Source of the DNA: Escherichia coli phage NG_S8
Sequence record: LC788711.1
Length of the DNA stretch: 64,000 nucleotides
Direction: 5' to 3' (one strand)
The translations under genes and the position numbers were made by a program. Below the pieces are notes generated by a model. It saw nothing but the letters and a program-made list of their open reading frames with translations, had not been told where the DNA came from and made no database searches. Positions 1,093-32,556 of this stretch are shown here, one piece after another. The stretch's first letter is position 1. Each line of letters begins with the position of its first letter.

Positions 1093-1162
1093 AATTGTTT
1101 TCCTTTTGTTGTTCTCTCAAATTTATGAATATATTATACAGAATTTTGGAGCTGAAAGCAAA

Positions 1163-13513: not shown

Positions 13514-13542
13514 TTGCTTTCGAGCTAAAACTTATGTATAAT
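13514..13542 (+). promoter_or_regulatory. early sigma70 promoter with conserved leader
   Basis: TTGCTT-17 bp-TATAAT followed by TGATTTATAAATTTGAGAGGAGAAAGCT-ATG. Confidence 0.65.
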
Positions 13543-13570
13543 TGATTTATAAATTTGAGAGGAGAAAGCT

Positions 13571-14065: not shown

Positions 14066-14228
14066 TTTAGAAAATATGCTTATGGAGCAGTGGAATGCTG
14101 GGTATAATGCTGGAGTAGCTACCTGTATTGCTGGTTTGGATATGCTTATTAAGCAAGAGAAGGTTCGCCCAGAAGAAGCAATTCTGCTCCAAAATATCAT
14201 CGAAGGATTCAAGCAAGGAATCATATAA
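14034..14228 (+). CDS. hypothetical protein (start uncertain; the track begins this frame at 13950)
   Basis: ATG at 14034 (MDFLNQ...) gives a 64 aa product ending just before the Sir2-like gene; overlaps the previous ORF in another frame. Confidence 0.35.
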   Translation: MDFLNQNLKSNLENMLMEQWNAGYNAGVATCIAGLDMLIKQEKVRPEEAILLQNIIEGFKQGII

Positions 14229-15079
14229 TGCGTAGACTAATCGTTGTTAGTGGTGCAGGTTTGAGTGTAGATAGTGGTGTTCGTGCTTTCCGTACTGATA
14301 CTGCTAGTGGGAAATCCTTGTGGGATGAGTACGATCTAGAGGAAGTATGTAGCTTGCCTAACTTTGAAGCTGGCTTCCGTCGCTTCTGTGGTGAAGATGA
14401 TCCTAACTACTTCAGTGCTCGTTTCCCTGGCATTGATAAAGATGGTAACGATCTGTATCTCAAGACTCATGAGTTCTACAACATGCGTCGTCAGGAATTA
14501 CAGACTGTTGAGCCTAACATTGCCCATCTGCGAATTGCAGAATGGTTCCAGCGTTATGGTGCGGATAGCGTGAAGAACTTCACTACTAACGTTGATGACC
14601 TTCTGGAACGTGCTGGTATCCCTCGTGATGAAATCATTCACGCTCACGGGTACTTGAAAGAGGTGATCTATCGTCAGGGTCGCAACCAAATCATCGAAGA
14701 TGTTGGGTATACTGCGATTGCCCCTGAGGATTACGAATGGGTAAAACCAAACGTAACATTCTTTGGTGAGACGGCTCCGTGGTATATGGGTCAGATTAAC
14801 CTGTTTGATACACTTACTAGCAATGATATGGTTATTGTAGTAGGTTGTAGCAACCAAGTAATCGACTTCAACTGGGAGCTATTTCCTGCTGTATGTCGTG
14901 GAACTAAGATGATGGTTGTTAACCCACAAGTTCGTTATGACGAACAGCTTGAGTATGAGAAACGTGGTGTTACTGTATGGCGTGCTGGAGCTGCCGAAGT
15001 TTTTGGTAATAAACACTTTATTGATCAAGTTGAAGCTTTTATGGAGGGAAATATTTATGTCCCAGAAAAGCATGTGTGA
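14228..15079 (+). CDS. Sir2 (sirtuin)-like NAD-binding protein
   Basis: VVSGAGLSVDSGVRAFR (GAGIS..SGIP.FR), TTNVDDLLERAG (TQNIDGLHERAG), HAHG (catalytic His), VVGCS (VVGTS); no CxxC...CxxC zinc ribbon. Confidence 0.8.
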   Translation: MRRLIVVSGAGLSVDSGVRAFRTDTASGKSLWDEYDLEEVCSLPNFEAGFRRFCGEDDPNYFSARFPGIDKDGNDLYLKTHEFYNMRRQELQTVEPNIAHLRIAEWFQRYGADSVKNFTTNVDDLLERAGIPRDEIIHAHGYLKEVIYRQGRNQIIEDVGYTAIAPEDYEWVKPNVTFFGETAPWYMGQINLFDTLTSNDMVIVVGCSNQVIDFNWELFPAVCRGTKMMVVNPQVRYDEQLEYEKRGVTVWRAGAAEVFGNKHFIDQVEAFMEGNIYVPEKHV

Positions 15080-15901: not shown

Positions 15902-16330
15902 ATGTTCAATAATATTTTCATGAAAGAGGTAAATCCTATGCTTCTCAACTTCTGGCGCTCTCTCCCTAATGGTATGTATAATGAAACCATCAATCTCCTT
16001 AAGATTTGGTGTGAGAATAACGATATCTTCCTGTCTTTTAAAGGCCCGCTAGAGGAAGCTCCGTGTATTGGAGTTAGTGTGGATTTAGGCGAGGGAGTAG
16101 AAGAGATTGTAGACTGGAAAGAACTTGATGAAATGGGTCTGGTTTTTGCCTTGAACCATAAGCTGTTTATGCCTGCAAATCACCGTCTTATTGTAAATTA
16201 TCGCACTGGTGAAGCTCCTGCTTTCCAGGTAAATGAACGTGAGGGCTGGTCATACTCGCCCGGGGAAGTAAATGAGGGGATTCAGAAACTTCGTCGTTTC
16301 GGGTATATGATCCCAGGTTTAACTGCTTAA
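15902..16330 (+). CDS. hypothetical protein, paralog A of a tandem pair
   Basis: 142 aa; C-terminal region aligns to the next ORF (W.EL..MGL..ALN...F.P......TGE.P...V.....W.Y...........L.R.G...PGL). Confidence 0.6.
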   Translation: MFNNIFMKEVNPMLLNFWRSLPNGMYNETINLLKIWCENNDIFLSFKGPLEEAPCIGVSVDLGEGVEEIVDWKELDEMGLVFALNHKLFMPANHRLIVNYRTGEAPAFQVNEREGWSYSPGEVNEGIQKLRRFGYMIPGLTA

Positions 16331-16339
16331 GGAGGCAGA

Positions 16340-16735
16340 ATGGAACAAGTATTTTGGCGTCAGATAGATCCTAGTTTGGTAGAGCGTGCTGAGGGGCTCC
16401 TTGCACGTTGGTTGGGGGTTGACAAGGTTAGTGTAACATTTCCGTTTACTTCTGTAACAGACCCTAGTGTAGGAGTCTTTGTGGATGAAGATGAAGATGA
16501 TGGTTGGGAAGCTGACTGGAATGAATTGTCCAGCATGGGCTTGATTGTTGCCCTCAACTTCTCTATATTCCATCCACGTGGCTTAGCCATTACACGTGAC
16601 CCCGAAACTGGTGAATCCCCTTATCTTTTGCAAGTAGAAGATGATATTTGGGAGTACACCGAAGATATTCTCGAAGAAGCTAAAGGTCACTTAAATCGCA
16701 TTGGGATCTATGTCCCAGGCCTAAATGATGATTGA
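16340..16735 (+). CDS. hypothetical protein, paralog B of a tandem pair
   Basis: 131 aa; shares the motif skeleton of the preceding ORF; GGAGGCAGA RBS before the ATG. Confidence 0.6.
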   Translation: MEQVFWRQIDPSLVERAEGLLARWLGVDKVSVTFPFTSVTDPSVGVFVDEDEDDGWEADWNELSSMGLIVALNFSIFHPRGLAITRDPETGESPYLLQVEDDIWEYTEDILEEAKGHLNRIGIYVPGLNDD

Positions 16736-16759
16736 TTTTCATTAGCCCAATCCTGATTA

Positions 16760-16786
16760 CCGAGTCATTTTGGCTCGGTTTTCTCT
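16760..16786 (+). terminator. intrinsic terminator
   Basis: Hairpin CCGAGTC-ATTTT-GGCTCGG followed by TTTTCTCT. Confidence 0.6.
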
Positions 16787-16826
16787 GTGCTCAAAGACAC
16801 TGATAGCACCTTCGGAAAAATTTTAC

Positions 16827-16855
16827 TTGCAGGATGCTCAAAATCTTGATATAAT
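16827..16855 (+). promoter_or_regulatory. early sigma70 promoter with conserved leader, about 500 nt upstream of the next start codon
   Basis: TTGCAG-17 bp-TATAAT then ATTTATATTGAATTGAGAGACATTAG, resembling the other early leaders. Confidence 0.55.
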
Positions 16856-17351
16856 ATTTATATTGAATTGAGAGACATTAGTAAAAATTGATTTTGCTAA
16901 TTTTTCTTGTTTACAATCCGCAATACGGAACAGTTAGGCTGCCCCATTAAGGGTTGTTTTAACTATTACTAGTGTTTATACTGCATTAGTTAATTATCAA
17001 TTAAGTGATCTGCGTACCCTGAATTCGGAAAGGTAAATCCAAACCGTGCATATTTAGCTCGTTATATAGGCAGAGCTTTATATGGGGGTGCGAACGAAAA
17101 GAGCAGCGAATGGTGACACGTCCAGTAGCCACCTACCAATAGGATAGTGAGGGCAATCAGAATCGGCTTAGCGGCCAATGACCTAGGTTCTGATCTGGAT
17201 AAGAGTTAAGAGAGCGCAGCACTGAGGTATGATAACTTATTCATACTGCTTGATGGTGATTAATGTTTGTGTAAATGGTAGTAATAGTTGTTCTATTCTT
17301 TTGAATAGTCCTAAAGAAAGATATCCGAATAACCAACATAGGAGTATTGTT

Positions 17352-20141
17352 GTGTTCTCAATCCTACAAGGTCACGCAGGATTTTCCAGAGATAAAGCCA
17401 CTGGCATCTGGAAAGAGATCAAAGTGGAAGATTACACCTTTGCAAAGCGATTCTCTAAAGAGCATCCAGAAGGTAAACCAGCTTCCATGCCCTTCAAATT
17501 TGATGTACTTGAAGAACTTGACCCGCAAAACCTTGCTGAAATGTTACCTATCATGCGTCGTCTTACCAAAGACCCGCATATTGTAGCTATTCGGGGTAAG
17601 TGTCTAGCTCCAAAAGATAATGTGCGTCGTACCAGAGGAAACTTTAACGTATCCAATCCTAGTCATATTATTGCTATGGACGTGGATGGTATTGTAGATA
17701 CTGGTGGCTATGACAAGTTTAATCTTGTTGGCATGGCACGTCATATTATTAAGATGTTGAATAGTATTAGTGAGGATATGTTTCCTCTTGATGCAGGGTT
17801 TATTGCCCATGCATCGTCTTCGGCTGGATTAAAACCAGGTATCCGAATGCACTTAATGCTAGAATCTAATGTCAAGGTAACGCAGGGACAGTTAAAGTTC
17901 TTATTTACATCTATCAATGATAGTAGTAAGCAAAAGTACGGCTTTGATATTGCTGACTTAGCTTATTATTCTTCTGTTCAGCTTCACTATTTCGCAGATC
18001 CCTTATTTGATGATGGTATAGTCGATCCGTTTAAAGCGGAGAATAAACCACGTCTTGTGTATGTTAAGGGTTCGAAGGTGAATCTACCTAATAACCTAGT
18101 TGACTTTGAAACAACTAGAGGTGAGTTTAAAGAAGAATTCTACTCCTTACTTGACCAAATTAAAGGCAAGAAGGCTGCATCTGATAAAGTGGAAGAAACC
18201 ATCAGCGAACTAGAAGAAGCTGAGGATGGGGTGTACCTGCGTATTATTCCAAAACTTTACCACAGAGCGTTAGAAGATGGTGTTGACTTTACATGGTTAG
18301 AACGTGAGATTAAACCAGCTTTATCTGAATATATTGCAACTAAAGATAATAGTCGTAATATTCAAGATTACTTTAATAACGGTCGTAAGCAGGCTCTCAA
18401 AGCCTTTGTAAATAACTCCAAACGTGAGATTCCACCAAACTTAAAAGGTGTACCATTAAAACGTCTAGACACAGATTCTCCACCAGAAGTTCCATACCTG
18501 AAAATTAACATTGTACCACCAAAAGGACATTTAACATTTGTTAAGGCAAGTCTTGGTACGGGTAAAACTACAGCAGTAACTAAGTGGCTAGATGCAGGTG
18601 TTCTTCCAGGAAACTTTATTGCAATCACAAATACTAGGGCACTTGTATCTTCTAACGCGAAGAAATTCGGTGCTGGTCAGTATGATAAGTCAGTTGATAT
18701 GCTGAACTTCAAACGTGGTGCCATTGATCGTATGTCTTCAACTATTCACTCTATCCATAAGTTCAAGAGCTTTGTGGGTCAGATTGATACGATCTTTATT
18801 GATGAATGTGACGCAGTAATGAATGATCTGTTATTCGCTCCGGTTGTTAAAAACCGTCGTGAATGTATTCAGGTTCTTCGTGATATCCTTATTACTGCTA
18901 AAACTGTTATCTTATCCGATGGTGATATCAGTGCAGAAACGATTGAAGCCTATGGTTCTTTGATTGATTTTGATAAACCAGTCGCATTTTATAATCACCA
19001 CCGTAAAATGCTGGCGAAAGCTCATGCTTATGAATTCCCTGATGAATCCAGTATTTGGGTTGCACTTCAAACATCTTTAGAGATGGGGGAGAAATCAATC
19101 CTAGTATCTGACTGTGGCCCGGATGAACTGAATGAGAAGGGAATGGCATTACGTCGTAATACTGGTGCGTTAGTTAAAGAAATTCACTCAAACTCTACGT
19201 CTGATGTAGATATCCGACGTATTCTGGATTATACAACTAATGAGCTAATTGATCAACAGATTGATTGTTTATTATGTAGTCCATCTGTAACGAGTGGTGT
19301 TGACTTTAACTATTTTGATAACGTATTCGTAATCACTAGAACCTCAAACCAAGCGCCAAACATGCGTTTTCAAGCAATCAGGCGCGACCGTGGTGCTCAG
19401 AACATTTATTATTTTATTGATAAATCTACGAGTGGATTTTCTGCGGGTTCCGAGCAATATAATATTGACGAAGGTTGGATTGAGTTAGCCCAACAACTGT
19501 ACGCACGTCGTCGTGAGCTGGAATCTAGAAACTATACTAGTACTTTGCGTTATTATCTGCTTGATCAGGGTGCAACTATCGATATTTTCAGCGAAAGCTG
19601 GGGAACTATCGAAGGTGCAGGCAAAGAGTATACAGAAGAGCGAATCAAAGCTATTTTGCACTCAACTCCTGAATATTGTGCACCACGTCATGCAGATGCC
19701 TATGAAGCCAAGTTACTTCTGGTTCGCTATTATCATCTGGATTCTATTAAAGATGTAACAGTGGAACACGTTGAACAGTATATCAAGGATAAACCAAACG
19801 ATAGAGCTGCATTCTTCCATAAGATGCACGACATGTTCTGGGAAGATATTAAAAAGTGTTCAAACGTAACAATCAAACCGTTTATCGAAGCTCTTAAGAA
19901 TAAGAAGAAGGATTTCTTCCTTAAGACAGGTCAGAGCGCTAACCCAAAATATGCTCGTATGTATCTTGGCATGATGGGTATCGGTAAAGATCTGGATACG
20001 GAAAAGATTGTGGACTGGTACAGAACTTACTGTAAGATCGAATGTATGCCGATTCCAGTTAAGTTTATGACAGATGAAGAACGTCAGATGCATGAGGAAG
20101 CTCTTGCTGAATTGGGGGCTAGAAATGACAGCGAAGAATAA
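17352..20141 (+). CDS. SF2-type helicase, replication-origin-binding-protein-like
   Basis: Walker A SLGTGKTT, Walker B IFIDECDAV, helicase motif SPSVTSGVDFN; probable GTG start at 17352 preceded by TAGGAG; the track ORF extends upstream to 17229. Confidence 0.8.
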   Translation: MFSILQGHAGFSRDKATGIWKEIKVEDYTFAKRFSKEHPEGKPASMPFKFDVLEELDPQNLAEMLPIMRRLTKDPHIVAIRGKCLAPKDNVRRTRGNFNVSNPSHIIAMDVDGIVDTGGYDKFNLVGMARHIIKMLNSISEDMFPLDAGFIAHASSSAGLKPGIRMHLMLESNVKVTQGQLKFLFTSINDSSKQKYGFDIADLAYYSSVQLHYFADPLFDDGIVDPFKAENKPRLVYVKGSKVNLPNNLVDFETTRGEFKEEFYSLLDQIKGKKAASDKVEETISELEEAEDGVYLRIIPKLYHRALEDGVDFTWLEREIKPALSEYIATKDNSRNIQDYFNNGRKQALKAFVNNSKREIPPNLKGVPLKRLDTDSPPEVPYLKINIVPPKGHLTFVKASLGTGKTTAVTKWLDAGVLPGNFIAITNTRALVSSNAKKFGAGQYDKSVDMLNFKRGAIDRMSSTIHSIHKFKSFVGQIDTIFIDECDAVMNDLLFAPVVKNRRECIQVLRDILITAKTVILSDGDISAETIEAYGSLIDFDKPVAFYNHHRKMLAKAHAYEFPDESSIWVALQTSLEMGEKSILVSDCGPDELNEKGMALRRNTGALVKEIHSNSTSDVDIRRILDYTTNELIDQQIDCLLCSPSVTSGVDFNYFDNVFVITRTSNQAPNMRFQAIRRDRGAQNIYYFIDKSTSGFSAGSEQYNIDEGWIELAQQLYARRRELESRNYTSTLRYYLLDQGATIDIFSESWGTIEGAGKEYTEERIKAILHSTPEYCAPRHADAYEAKLLLVRYYHLDSIKDVTVEHVEQYIKDKPNDRAAFFHKMHDMFWEDIKKCSNVTIKPFIEALKNKKKDFFLKTGQSANPKYARMYLGMMGIGKDLDTEKIVDWYRTYCKIECMPIPVKFMTDEERQMHEEALAELGARNDSEE

Positions 20142-20366: not shown

Positions 20367-20395
20367 TTGCTTTTAGGAAAATTTTTCTGTATAAT
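20367..20395 (+). promoter_or_regulatory. strong early promoter, near-identical to T5 PN25 as I recall it
   Basis: TTGCTT-17 bp-TATAAT embedded in AAATTTATTTGCTTTTAGGAAAATTTTTCTGTATAATAGATTCATAAATTTGAGAGAGGAGTTTAAAT-ATG. Confidence 0.8.
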
Positions 20396-20426
20396 AGATT
20401 CATAAATTTGAGAGAGGAGTTTAAAT

Positions 20427-32473: not shown

Positions 32474-32485
32474 TTATTGTATAAT
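32457..32485 (+). promoter_or_regulatory. early sigma70 promoter, first of a tandem pair
   Basis: TTGGCA-17 bp-TATAAT then conserved leader CATAAATTTGAGAGAG. Confidence 0.55.
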
Positions 32486-32556
32486 ATATACATAAATTTG
32501 AGAGAGAAAGTTTCGGATTGATAAGAAAGTCCGAAGCAGAAAAATAAAAATTGTAC

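What the first reader, a model, noticed from the sequence alone, without database searches (positions are those of the whole stretch)
16736..17351. About 600 bp non-coding region with its own promoter upstream of the origin-binding-like helicase
This is a compact genome where most genes abut or overlap, yet no ORF of 60 aa or more exists here on either strand. The stretch begins with a terminator hairpin (16760-16786), then a promoter with the conserved early leader (16827-16855), then about 500 nt with only short inverted repeats (for example CTATTC-TTTT-GAATAG near 17291-17306) before the helicase start. It could be a long structured 5' leader, a small non-coding RNA, or a replication origin placed beside its binding helicase.
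Basis: partly seen in the sequence, partly recalled or inferred. Interest (0 to 1): 0.6.

Follow-up and report, generated by a model that had tools for sequence, protein, structure and literature searches.

The report
Large structured RNA before T5 helicase
The 600-bp gap before the replication helicase gene of this T5-like phage encodes a roughly 490-nucleotide, intricately folded RNA, conserved across T5 relatives, that matches no catalogued RNA family and has no known function.

Summary
Window 16736-17351 (a T5-like Epseptimavirus, about 100% identical to Salmonella phage SH9) has no credible ORF. It starts with an intrinsic terminator (16759-16786) and an extended -10 early promoter (16827-16855), and it ends at the true GTG start (17352) of the T5 D2 helicase/primase.

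It is not a spacer. The transcript (about 16862-17351) folds into a 5' hairpin, an invariant 25-nt motif, and a helix of about 40 bp that closes a multi-helix domain of about 250 nt carrying a conserved C[UUAGCG]G hairpin.

- A fold predicted from the window sequence alone is kept by 7 compensatory double substitutions in the T5 clade (slid controls 0-1).
- A second sequence type shows 6 more compensatory pairs.
- Helices covary across Pectobacterium, Klebsiella, Providencia and Proteus phages.
- 26 of 166 pairs are G·U, so the fold is specific to the transcribed strand.
- The 5' half is more conserved than the flanking genes.

There is no Rfam match, no iterons, and no copy outside T5-like phages.

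Best reading: a new, large structured leader RNA of the D2 mRNA, possibly excised by RNase III. Its function is unproven. A trans-acting RNA or an RNA II-like origin transcript remains possible.

The parts
16759..16786 (+). Intrinsic terminator ending the upstream operon (stem ACCGAG/CTCGGT, T run)
   Evidence: It is conserved in T5 and in type-B phages. In S132 an HNH cassette is inserted right after its stem.
16827..16855 (+). Early sigma-70 promoter: -35 TTGCAG, 17-nt spacer, extended -10 TG (16847-16848), -10 TATAAT (16850-16855), followed by an ATATT-type discriminator
   Evidence: Sequence. CTTGCA-17-TATAAT is conserved in Sugarland, DU_PP_V, My1 and PR1. The record for phage S114 annotates a putative promoter here. 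The T5 early-promoter ATATT discriminator is described in PMC7472727.
16862..17351 (+). Whole structured leader RNA, about 490 nt. The start is inferred from the -10 position; the conserved sequence begins at TGAGAGAC, 16868.
   Evidence: MFE -141 kcal/mol, z = -4.3 on the + strand against -2.4 on the - strand. Covariation. The 5' boundary is defined by phages with a replaced promoter.
16868..16909 (+). P1: 5' hairpin (GAGAGA.AUUAGUAAAA / UUUUGCUAAU.UUUCUU)
   Evidence: The same hairpin shape with different sequence is seen in DU_PP_V, My1 and Sugarland. It is 100% identical in types A and B.
16923..16947 (+). M1: invariant motif AUACGGAACAGUUAGGCUGCCCCAU (AUAC[G/A]GAACAGUnnGGCUGC in all five enterobacterial-phage lineages)
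   Evidence: Collection scans find true copies only in T5-like phages.
16960..17000 (+). P2, 5' strand of the long AU-rich helix (38 pairs in the window fold)
   Evidence: helix 4: 29 pairs invariant, 6 vary on one side, 1 compensatory. One search inverted repeat I1. A duplex of -27 to -43 kcal/mol forms in all five lineages with unrelated sequences.
17250..17290 (+). P2, 3' strand
   Evidence: Same as for the P2 5' strand.
17004..17026 (+). P3, 5' strand (core CUGCGU at 17010-17015) closing the central domain
   Evidence: CUGCGU/GCGCAG (window), CUGUGU/GCACAG (T5), CUACAU/GUGUAG (type B2), CUACAC/GUGUAG (DU_PP_V, My1), CUAGAA/UUCUAG (Sugarland); 6 of 6 pairs form in every lineage. Also.
17203..17223 (+). 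P3, 3' strand (core GCGCAG at 17214-17219)
17027..17202 (+). Central multi-helix domain (type A). In type-B phages it is replaced by an unalignable sequence with the same closing helices.
   Evidence: Identity to type B drops to 34-48% here while the flanks stay at 98-100%. Four compensatory pairs lie inside it in type A (267-343, 274-298, 302-338, 303-337).
17158..17192 (+). H12/H13: 7-bp helix (CAGAAUC/GGUUCUG) enclosing the hairpin GGC[UUAGCG]GCC (17165-17176) and a 3' bulge
   Evidence: CTTAGCGG occurs exactly once per 6-kb locus, always on the + strand and in this RNA, in all Markadamsvirinae, Sugarland, My1, DU_PP_V, PR1/PSTCR5 and Stubb, and twice in Aeromonas phage TS3.
17224..17249 (+). 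3' hairpin of type A (GUAUGA-UAACUUAU-UCAUAC). In type B, DU_PP_V, My1 and Sugarland its place is taken by a hairpin with the loop GUUGCCAcc.
   Evidence: helix 14 (372-391 AU<->GC). (AAGUGG/CCACUU <-> AAGGGG/CCCCUU).
17293..17308 (+). Small hairpin CUAUUC-UUUU-GAAUAG, not followed by a T run, so not a terminator
   Evidence: helix 15, invariant. Sugarland has CUAUC-CUU-GAUAG at the same place.
17340..17354 (+). Shine-Dalgarno AGGAG (17340-17344) and the true GTG start (17352) of the D2 helicase/primase

Best explanation
The gap encodes an RNA element, not a spacer and not a DNA origin of the iteron type. Host RNA polymerase starts at a T5 early-class, extended -10 promoter (16827-16855). It transcribes about 490 nt of untranslated RNA that runs, with no terminator, into the D2 helicase/primase gene (GTG 17352).

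This leader folds into:
- a 5' hairpin (P1);
- an invariant 25-nt motif (M1);
- an AU-rich helix of about 40 bp (P2), formed by sequences about 290 nt apart;
- a second closing helix (P3);
- a multi-hairpin central domain that carries a conserved C[UUAGCG]G hairpin.

The fold is maintained by selection in every enterobacterial T5-like lineage examined, while the inner domain has been exchanged or has evolved rapidly.

The most likely mechanism is inferred, not shown. The RNA acts in cis on D2 expression. The near-perfect P2 duplex is a candidate RNase III substrate. Cleavage there would separate the structured domain from the D2 message and set the 5' end, stability and translation of that message. 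The conserved loops (M1, UUAGCG) would be contact sites for a protein or for tertiary folding.

My estimates:
- It is a functional structured RNA: about 0.9.
- It is co-transcribed with D2 as its leader in this phage: about 0.75.
- Its main role is cis control of D2: about 0.4.
For: **Shown**
1. No ORF of 60 aa or more, and no conserved small ORF. The ATG-17229 extension is not conserved.
2. The promoter is conserved across genera. Sequence conservation begins exactly at TGAGAGAC in phages whose promoter was replaced by an HNH cassette.
3. The + strand folds at z = -4.3, the - strand at -2.4. 26 of 166 pairs are G·U. The mirrored fold on the - strand is 33 kcal/mol weaker.
4. The fold predicted from the window sequence alone was tested on 15 type-A sequences: 96.6% of cells paired, 7 pairs changed on both sides (0,0,0,0,0,1 in the slid controls), and 0 of 500 shuffles reach the covariation score.
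5. Type B gives 6 compensatory pairs and 99.5% of cells paired, or 3 pairs with a single-sequence fold.
6. Across lineages, P3, H12, the UUAGCG stem and two hairpins keep pairing with different sequences, and a long P2 duplex forms in all five lineages.
7. The distance from the -10 hexamer to the D2 start is 477-502 nt in five lineages.
8. The 5' half is 92-100% identical between the window and T5, while the flanking coding sequence is 70-86% identical.
9. No terminator lies between the RNA and D2.
10. The other early promoters in the window lie 28-128 nt from their genes.

**Inferred**
The transcription start, co-transcription with D2, RNase III cleavage of P2, and the regulatory outcome.
Against: - There is no expression or processing data; I found no T5 transcript map in the papers I could search.
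- In Proteus phage Stubb a perfect consensus promoter lies 37 nt before D2, downstream of the RNA region. D2 therefore need not be expressed through the RNA there, which favours an independent role for the RNA.
- Pairing that would occlude the Shine-Dalgarno sequence is weak and differs between lineages.
- 490 nt with a swappable inner domain is far more than known translational operators need.
- Within each type the covariation rests on few independent lineages: essentially two clades in type A and two or three in type B.
Confidence: 0.55

Rival explanations
1. A stable, trans-acting non-coding RNA. The structured core (about 16960-17290) is released from the primary transcript, for example by RNase III cutting in P2. 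It then works on its own as an RNA-protein particle, a scaffold or decoy for a host or phage protein, or a cofactor of the replication machinery. D2 merely shares the promoter.
For: - The size and architecture (a closing rod plus a multi-helix domain with invariant loops) resemble processed stable RNAs rather than operators.
- Proteus phage Stubb has its own 12/12 consensus promoter for D2 after the RNA region.
- By eye, Aeromonas TS3 and Vibrio D153 have terminator-like hairpins about 80 nt before D2.
- The inner domain is exchanged between otherwise near-identical phages, as might be expected for an RNA that faces a variable partner.
- An optional 97-nt expansion segment is present in 51 phage records.
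Against: - In the window and its close relatives nothing terminates the RNA before D2.
- The distance from the RNA to D2 is tightly conserved, which suggests a cis relationship.
- No processing data exist.
- The terminator scan did not confirm the TS3 hairpin.
Confidence: 0.25
2. A transcription-primed replication origin. The promoter-driven, folded transcript behaves like ColE1 RNA II or the T4 oriF/oriG and T7 origin transcripts. It forms a persistent RNA-DNA hybrid near the D2 gene. This hybrid opens the duplex, primes leading-strand synthesis and loads the adjacent primase-helicase.
For: - It lies next to the gene annotated as origin-binding protein / primase-helicase.
- A strong early promoter drives about 0.5 kb of untranslated, structured RNA, as with RNA II.
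- AT-rich flanks (GC 0.28-0.33 at 16800-16999 and 0.30 at 17250-17349) surround a GC-richer core.
- In T5 the element sits at about 48.5% of the genome.
- The T5 origin or origins have not been defined at sequence level in the literature I could reach.
Against: - No iterons or repeated binding sites.
- No antisense promoter on the - strand in 16000-18000.
- Selection acts on intramolecular RNA pairing including G·U pairs, which an R-loop primer does not by itself require.
- The transcript ends in a good Shine-Dalgarno sequence and an ORF.
- Recombitron editing of T5 pointed to dominant unidirectional replication from one genome end (PMC10055335).
- The "origin-binding" name of D2 rests only on helicase-domain homology to herpesvirus UL9.
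Confidence: 0.12
3. A DNA-level or non-functional feature: a decayed gene, a recombination scar, a binding region for a transcription factor, or a region encoding a small protein.
For: - Several GenBank records annotate small hypothetical ORFs here.
- The locus is a hotspot for insertions: an HNH cassette and a 97-nt segment.
Against: - The annotated small ORFs differ between records and lineages, and one spans the terminator and the promoter.
- Substitutions come as compensatory pairs rather than with codon periodicity.
- Conservation exceeds that of the neighbouring genes.
- Insertions spare the RNA precisely.
Confidence: 0.04

Closest known systems
ColE1-type RNA II (plasmid replication pre-primer)
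   Same: An untranslated, multi-stem-loop transcript of about 0.5 kb made from its own sigma-70 promoter, placed beside replication functions, with a fold that matters.
   Different: No antisense RNA I-type promoter and no Rfam match. The RNA here runs into a Shine-Dalgarno sequence and a 929-aa ORF. No evidence exists for a hybrid or an RNase H site. It sits in a virulent linear phage, not a plasmid.
RNase III processing stalks (rRNA operon stems; T7 early mRNA R sites; lambda N leader)
   Same: A long, slightly irregular duplex formed by sequences that flank a structured RNA or precede a cistron. The host is E. coli or Salmonella, which have RNase III.
   Different: Cleavage is untested. P2 (about 40 bp, closing about 250 nt) is larger than the T7 R sites. 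The enclosed domain is neither rRNA nor a known RNA.
Large ornate bacterial and phage ncRNAs (ROOL, GOLLD, OLE, raiA, HEARO)
   Same: The same size class (0.5 kb or more). Many helices supported by covariation, interspersed with invariant nucleotides. Some of these families are phage-borne. Function is unknown.
   Different: No match to any of these Rfam models, in the window or in eight relatives. This RNA is AU-rich. It has a fixed position as the leader of a replicative helicase gene. Its inner domain is interchangeable.
Translational operators and candidate cis-RNAs upstream of phage replication genes (T4 gene 32 pseudoknot, gp43 operator; csRNAs of Fremin et al. 2023, PMC10690425)
   Same: A conserved RNA structure directly upstream of a phage replication protein gene; a plausible autoregulatory logic.
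   Different: About ten times larger. No evidence that D2 binds it. The paper's main text does not mention helicase, primase or T5-like phages. Its candidate list was not available to me, so an unnamed overlap cannot be excluded.
Processive antitermination RNAs (HK022 put, lambda nut, EAR)
   Same: A promoter-proximal, ultra-conserved hairpin (P1) at the start of a long early transcript.
   Different: No sequence or model match. The GAGAG leader is shared by other T5 early promoters that lack the rest of the RNA. No downstream terminators have been shown to be overridden.

Membership tests
Any Rfam 15 family (4227 models, including ROOL, GOLLD, OLE, raiA, HEARO, RNase P, tmRNA, 6S, riboswitches, ribozymes, RNAI, c4) | A match to the family covariance model at or near its gathering score | tested here: not met
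   No hits at gathering thresholds in the whole window. At E<=10 in 16500-17600 there are only two sub-threshold chance hits over the terminator. Nothing appears in the homologous regions of eight relatives at E<=1.
tRNA / tmRNA | A cloverleaf or tmRNA detected by ARAGORN | tested here: not met
   No genes found in the window.
Bacterial RNase P RNA (a lead from memory: AGAAUCGGCUUAGCGGCC resembles the conserved ACAGAAnCCGGCUUA region) | P4 helix with conserved regions CR-I and CR-V in the correct order; a match to the RNaseP_bact models | tested here: not met
   No RNase P model hit even at E<=10. No GAGGAAAGUCC-type partner lies upstream. I treat the resemblance as coincidental.
Iteron-type replication origin | Several direct repeats (initiator binding sites) next to an AT-rich unwinding element | tested here: not met
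   Only three 2-copy chance repeats of 9-15 nt. AT-rich stretches exist, but they form the two strands of the RNA helix P2.
ColE1 RNA II-type primer origin | An untranslated structured transcript of about 550 nt from its own promoter | tested here: met
   A promoter plus a structured untranslated RNA of about 490 nt.
ColE1 RNA II-type primer origin | An antisense RNA I gene and promoter overlapping the 5' end | tested here: not met
   No promoter-like site on the - strand in 16000-18000. No RNAI model hit.
ColE1 RNA II-type primer origin | A persistent RNA-DNA hybrid and RNase H cleavage at the origin, with DNA synthesis starting there | not testable with these tools
   This needs DRIP or RNase H mapping and nascent-strand mapping.
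RNase III processing site | About two helical turns (20 bp or more) of mostly Watson-Crick duplex RNA | tested here: met
   P2 has 38 predicted pairs in the window, 95.6% of cells paired across type A (helix 4). Duplexes of -27 to -43 kcal/mol form in five lineages.
RNase III processing site | Actual staggered cleavage by RNase III in vivo or in vitro | not testable with these tools
   This needs 5'/3' end mapping in wild-type and rnc hosts.
Cis-regulatory 5' leader of the downstream gene | Same strand, no terminator and no other promoter between the element and the gene; synteny kept | tested here: met
   Met in the window and in the T5, Sugarland, My1 and DU_PP_V lineages. Not met in Proteus phage Stubb, which has a 12/12 promoter 37 nt before D2.
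Cis-regulatory 5' leader of the downstream gene | A conserved structure that occludes or exposes the Shine-Dalgarno sequence or start codon | tested here: inconclusive
   In types A and B, UCCUA (17309-17313) can pair with UAGGA, and GCAAUAC (16920-16926) with GUAUUGU (17345-17351). These sequences never vary or are partly broken in T5 (helices 2 and 16). Other lineages use different, weak pairings.
Protein-coding gene / small ORF | An ORF conserved across relatives, with a ribosome-binding site | tested here: not met
   The small ORFs annotated in some records are not shared between lineages.

The most novel reading that the evidence does not exclude
T5-like phages carry a previously unrecognised class of large ornate RNA: about 0.5 kb here, with non-coding gaps of 0.7 to 1.6 kb at the same place in Vibrio and Aeromonas relatives. 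This RNA would be a working partner of the D2 primase-helicase. It could be an RNA II-like folded pre-primer that defines the long-sought T5 replication origin, or an RNA cofactor or scaffold excised by RNase III. Its exchangeable inner domain would then reflect specificity or an arms race.
Probability: 0.2. Interest if true: 0.85.

Novelty: new variant of a known kind. Interest (0 to 1): 0.62.

Why it matters
T5 is a classical model phage, and its relatives are widely used in phage therapy and biocontrol. Yet its replication origin and the control of its replicative helicase/primase are still undefined.

A covariation-supported RNA of about 490 nt, more conserved than its neighbouring genes, sitting directly before D2 and absent from Rfam, gives a concrete and mutable target for both questions. 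It also adds a phage example to the small set of large structured RNAs of unknown function.

Two practical corrections follow:
- Many GenBank records start D2 41 codons too early, inside the RNA.
- Several records annotate spurious small ORFs across the RNA.

Tried and rejected
- **Rfam and ARAGORN scans:** nothing found.
- **ATG 17229 as the helicase start:** rejected.
- **Iterons and tandem binding sites:** none.
- **Host or plasmid similarity, mimicry or a prophage copy:** none in E. coli genomes or plasmids.
- **Scans for the M1 motif in IMG/VR, metagenomes and GTDB genomes:** every hit outside T5-like phages is a chance match inside a coding sequence, lacking the upstream AUAC and the downstream UUAGCGG. 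One recurrent gut-metagenome hit with TTAGCGG at +109 is a bacterial gene.
- **RNase P resemblance:** recalled from memory and not supported.
- **Covariance model of the UUAGCG domain:** the MAFFT alignment of nine lineages (A4) did not place the helix strands in common columns, so I built no model. I verified the pairings by script instead.
- **mafft-xinsi:** not installed.
- **Vibrio-phage upstream regions:** alifold on 5 sequences gave a mix of compensatory and broken pairs on a poor alignment, so this is inconclusive. Neither M1 nor CUUAGCGG occurs there.
- **Literature:**
  - Bourguignon 1976 (the T5 origin EM map) is not held.
  - I found no T5 transcriptome or ncRNA paper.
  - The Fremin 2023 supplements are not held.
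- **97-nt insert as a multi-copy mobile element:** rejected, since there is one copy per genome and its fold is unremarkable (z = -1.1).
Full report
**Identity of the window and the locus**

The region is 99-100% identical to Salmonella phage SH9 and other Epseptimavirus/Tequintavirus (T5-like, Demerecviridae) genomes. 538 phage records match it.

The downstream gene is annotated in GenBank as "replication origin binding protein", "DNA primase C" or similar. It is the orthologue of T5 D2, the bipolar SF2 helicase of Wong et al. 2013 (PMC3632103). Counted from GTG 17352, its Walker A motif falls at residues 399-406, exactly as published.

**Check of the observation**

- The upstream 131-aa ORF ends at 16735, and no ORF of 60 aa or more lies in 16736-17351.
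- The terminator (16759-16779 plus a T run) is found by the scan.
- The promoter is TTGCAG-17-TATAAT (16827-16855) with an extended -10 TG.
  - The -35 hexamer has only 3 of 6 matches, which is why the scan missed it.
  - CTTGCA-17-TATAAT is conserved in the Klebsiella (Sugarland), Pectobacterium (My1, DU_PP_V) and Providencia (PR1) relatives.
  - It carries the ATATT-type discriminator reported for T5 early promoters (PMC7472727).
- The "early leader" is real: TATAAT-N5-14-TGAGAG occurs 5 times in the window against 0.27 expected.
- The other four copies of that leader sit 28-128 nt from their first gene. This one is 497 nt from the real start.

**True start of D2**

Many records start the gene at ATG 17229 (970 aa). 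The evidence favours GTG 17352:
- In T5 the in-frame upstream stretch has no start codon.
- In My1 a stop codon immediately precedes the start.
- In all lineages a good Shine-Dalgarno sequence precedes the GTG/ATG that aligns with 17352.
- tblastn homologues down to 58% identity align from residue 1.

**The gap is conserved across the family**

| Phage | Non-coding stretch before the D2 homologue |
|---|---|
| Sugarland | about 600 bp |
| My1 | 590 bp |
| PSTCR5 | 710 bp |
| Vibrio phages Athena and D153 | about 700 bp (only tiny ORFs annotated) |
| Vibrio phage JSF10 | 1.1 kb |
| Aeromonas phage TS3 | 1.6 kb, including a divergent promoter region |

From the -10 hexamer to the D2 start codon the distance is 499, 500, 502, 502, 490, 477 and 490 nt. 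These values are for the window, T5, two type-B phages, DU_PP_V, My1 and Sugarland.

**Conservation pattern**

Against T5, the window is 92-100% identical over 16850-17150. It is only 70-86% identical in the upstream gene and about 80% in D2.

A second group of Tequintavirus/Epseptimavirus phages ("type B", for example chee24 and STWB21) behaves differently:
- They are about 100% identical over 16856-16960.
- They drop to 34-48% (unalignable) over about 16990-17250.
- Conservation resumes from about 17285.
- Islands shared with type A remain: GAUCUGCGU..., GGCUUAGCGGCC and ...GCGCAGC.

Both types occur in both genera. The type-B inner domain is closer to that of Pectobacterium phage DU_PP_V (67% identity) than to type A. 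Type A therefore looks like the derived or replaced version.

In phages where an HNH homing-endonuclease cassette has replaced the native promoter, conservation starts exactly at TGAGAGAC (16868). These are L012, L015, L025, L174, S132 and SP76. The conserved unit is therefore the transcript, not the promoter.

**Structure**

The + strand RNA (16856-17351) folds at -141 kcal/mol, z = -4.3, with 0 of 100 shuffles as good. The - strand gives z = -2.4.

26 of the 166 predicted pairs are G·U. The mirror-image fold on the - strand is 33 kcal/mol weaker. Many substitutions are A-U<->G·U or G-C<->G·U transitions, which preserve pairing only on the + strand.

*Test on type A.* I took the fold predicted from the window sequence alone, so it is independent of the other sequences. 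I counted it on 15 type-A sequences: 3 from the window clade and 12 from the T5 clade (A3).
- 96.6% of cells are paired.
- 7 pairs have changes on both sides: 126-414, 158-361, 267-343, 274-298, 302-338, 303-337 and 372-391.
- The six slid controls give 0,0,0,0,0,1.
- No shuffle out of 500 reaches the covariation score.

*Test on type B* (A5, 12 distinct sequences).
- A single-sequence fold gives 3 compensatory pairs, with 0 in all slid controls.
- The alignment fold gives 6 compensatory pairs, with slid controls of 0,1,0,0,1,0 and 99.5% of cells paired.
- These include CUGCG/CGCAG -> CUACA/UGUAG in P3, GGAG/CUCC -> AGAG/CUCU, and AAGUGG/CCACUU -> AAGGGG/CCCCUU.

A caveat applies to both tests. 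Within each type the changes come from two or three clades, so these are a handful of independent events, not dozens.

**Cross-lineage support**

- **P1** is a hairpin of the same shape with different sequence in DU_PP_V, My1 and Sugarland.
- **P3** forms 6 of 6 pairs in seven lineages, using four different sequences.
- **H12**, the helix enclosing the UUAGCG hairpin, covaries:
  - CAGAAUC/GGUUCUG (window)
  - UAGAAUC/GGUUCUA (T5)
  - CAAAUCU/GGAUUUG (type B)
  - AUACGGG/CUCGUAU (My1)
- **The 3-bp stem under the UUAGCG loop** varies:
  - GGC/GCC (window)
  - GAC/GUC (My1)
  - UGC/GCG (PR1)
  - GCC/GGU (Stubb)
- **P2** forms a duplex of -27 to -43 kcal/mol, spanning about 50 nt on each side, in all five lineages with unrelated sequences.

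The octamer CTTAGCGG occurs exactly once per 6-kb locus, always on the + strand and inside this RNA:
- In most lineages it lies 170-187 nt before the D2 start.
- In Providencia phages it lies 285 nt before the start, and in Proteus phages 410 nt.
- Aeromonas phage TS3, whose D2 is only 26% identical, has two copies. One caps a 10-bp hairpin flanked by CAGAAUC...GGUUC, as in the window.
- The octamer is absent from the Vibrio phages and from a metagenomic low-GC group whose D2 is 44% identical. That group has only a short AT-rich divergent intergenic region.

**Anatomy in window coordinates**

| Element | Coordinates |
|---|---|
| Transcription start (inferred) | about 16862 |
| P1 | 16868-16909 |
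| M1 (AUACGGAACAGUUAGGCUGCCCCAU) | 16923-16947 |
| P2 | 16960-17000 with 17250-17290 |
| P3 | 17004-17026 with 17203-17223 |
| Central domain | 17027-17202 |
| H12/H13 | 17158-17192 |
| 3' hairpin | 17224-17249 |
| Small hairpin | 17293-17308 |
| Shine-Dalgarno | 17340-17344 |
| GTG start | 17352 |

**What it is not**

- It matches no Rfam 15 family in the window or in eight relatives, and it holds no tRNA or tmRNA.
- It has no iterons. The only notable repeat is the P2 inverted repeat.
- No promoter-like site lies on the - strand.
- It has no similarity to E. coli genomes or plasmids.
- The M1 motif finds true copies only in T5-like contigs in IMG/VR, metagenomes and GTDB genomes. The other hits are chance matches in coding sequence.
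- The small ORFs annotated in some records are not conserved. One of them spans the terminator and the promoter.

**How it most likely works**

*Shown:* a conserved early promoter; an untranslated stretch of about 490 nt whose + strand base pairing is under selection; no terminator before D2; a fixed distance to D2.

*Inferred:*
- The RNA is the 5' leader of the D2 message.
- The near-perfect AU-rich P2 duplex of about 40 bp is the kind of substrate RNase III cuts, as in rRNA precursor stalks and T7 early RNA (established knowledge; not tested here).
- Cutting there would release the folded core and leave D2 mRNA with a defined 5' end.
- The invariant single-stranded M1 and the UUAGCG loop are candidate contact sites.
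- Weak pairings can cover the Shine-Dalgarno sequence or the spacer: UCCUA with UAGGA, and GCAAUAC with GUAUUGU. They do not vary within types A and B, and they differ in other lineages. Translational control is therefore possible but unsupported.

*Points towards an independent role for the RNA:*
- Proteus phage Stubb has perfect 12/12 promoters both at the start of its RNA region of about 700 nt and 37 nt before D2.
- By eye, Aeromonas TS3 and Vibrio D153 have terminator-like hairpins before D2. The scan did not confirm this for TS3.

*The origin idea* survives only in an RNA-primed (ColE1 RNA II, or T4/T7 origin transcript) form.
- The T5 origin is undefined in what I could read.
- One recent study argues for dominant unidirectional replication from a genome end.

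**Novelty**

I found no description of this RNA.

A 2023 survey reported over 10,000 unnamed candidate structured RNAs in IMG/VR. Its text does not mention helicase, primase or T5-like phages, and its lists were not available to me. An unnamed overlap therefore cannot be excluded.

I rate it a new RNA family within the known broad kind of large structured bacterial and phage RNAs or leaders. It is of real interest to RNA and phage-replication specialists, but its function is unknown and there are no expression data.

Noticed in passing
window 17229-17351: Most GenBank and RefSeq records start the D2 / origin-binding / primase gene at ATG 17229 (970 aa). The conserved start is GTG 17352 (929 aa) with an AGGAG Shine-Dalgarno sequence. 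The 41 extra codons lie inside the structured RNA.
   Followed up: yes
L016 1963-2059; L018 and L033 at the same place (equivalent to window about 16909/16910): An optional 97-nt segment (AGTGAAGCTGACAAGGG...AAAAAGTTTTTTCTT) is inserted right after P1, with a TTTTTCTT duplication. It occurs in both type-A and type-B backgrounds. It is present once per genome in 51 phage records, including Yersinia phiR2-01. Its own fold is unremarkable (z = -1.1). It could be an expansion segment or a relic of an insertion.
   Followed up: partly
L210 (Salmonella phage S132) 255-835; also SP76 (L211), L012, L015, L025, L174: An HNH homing-endonuclease cassette sits between the terminator stem and the RNA. It brings its own promoter (TTTGCA-18-TATAAT) and joins precisely at AAATGAGAGAC, so the RNA is left intact. 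The locus is an insertion hotspot.
   Followed up: partly
window about 16990-17250 compared with L017-L027, L033, L173-L176: Two unalignable versions (types A and B) of the inner RNA domain exist among phages whose flanks are about 100% identical. Both types occur in both Epseptimavirus and Tequintavirus. Type B resembles Pectobacterium phage DU_PP_V. L028 has a type-A core with a type-B 3' tail, which suggests recombination within the element.
   Followed up: partly
window 1114-1138 (-), 13537-13561, 20390-20414, 32480-32504 (+): There are four further early promoters with the TATAAT...(A)TTTGAGAG leader. Three are 28-41 nt from their gene. The one at 32480 has a 128-nt leader that I did not examine.
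   Followed up: no
L040 (Vibrio phage JSF10) 1330-2432; L042 (Aeromonas phage TS3) 718-2309; L039, L041: Distant Demerecviridae keep much larger non-coding, purine- and GC-rich stretches (0.7-1.6 kb) before the D2 homologue. TS3 has two CUUAGCGG hairpins. The Vibrio phages have none, and their structure could not be settled. Vibrio locus L053 (an IMG/VR contig) has an extra insert of about 100 nt after a conserved 5' part, which recalls the 97-nt insert of the T5 group.
   Followed up: partly
L046 (Proteus phage Stubb) 1705-1733 and 2435-2464: Two perfect 12/12 sigma-70 consensus promoters: one at the start of the non-coding region of about 700 nt and one 37 nt before D2.
   Followed up: partly
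window 14228-15079: The 283-aa ORF upstream in the same early operon is annotated in relatives as a SIR2-family NAD-dependent deacetylase (S114, Sugarland, My1). It is a conserved neighbour of this locus across genera.
   Followed up: no
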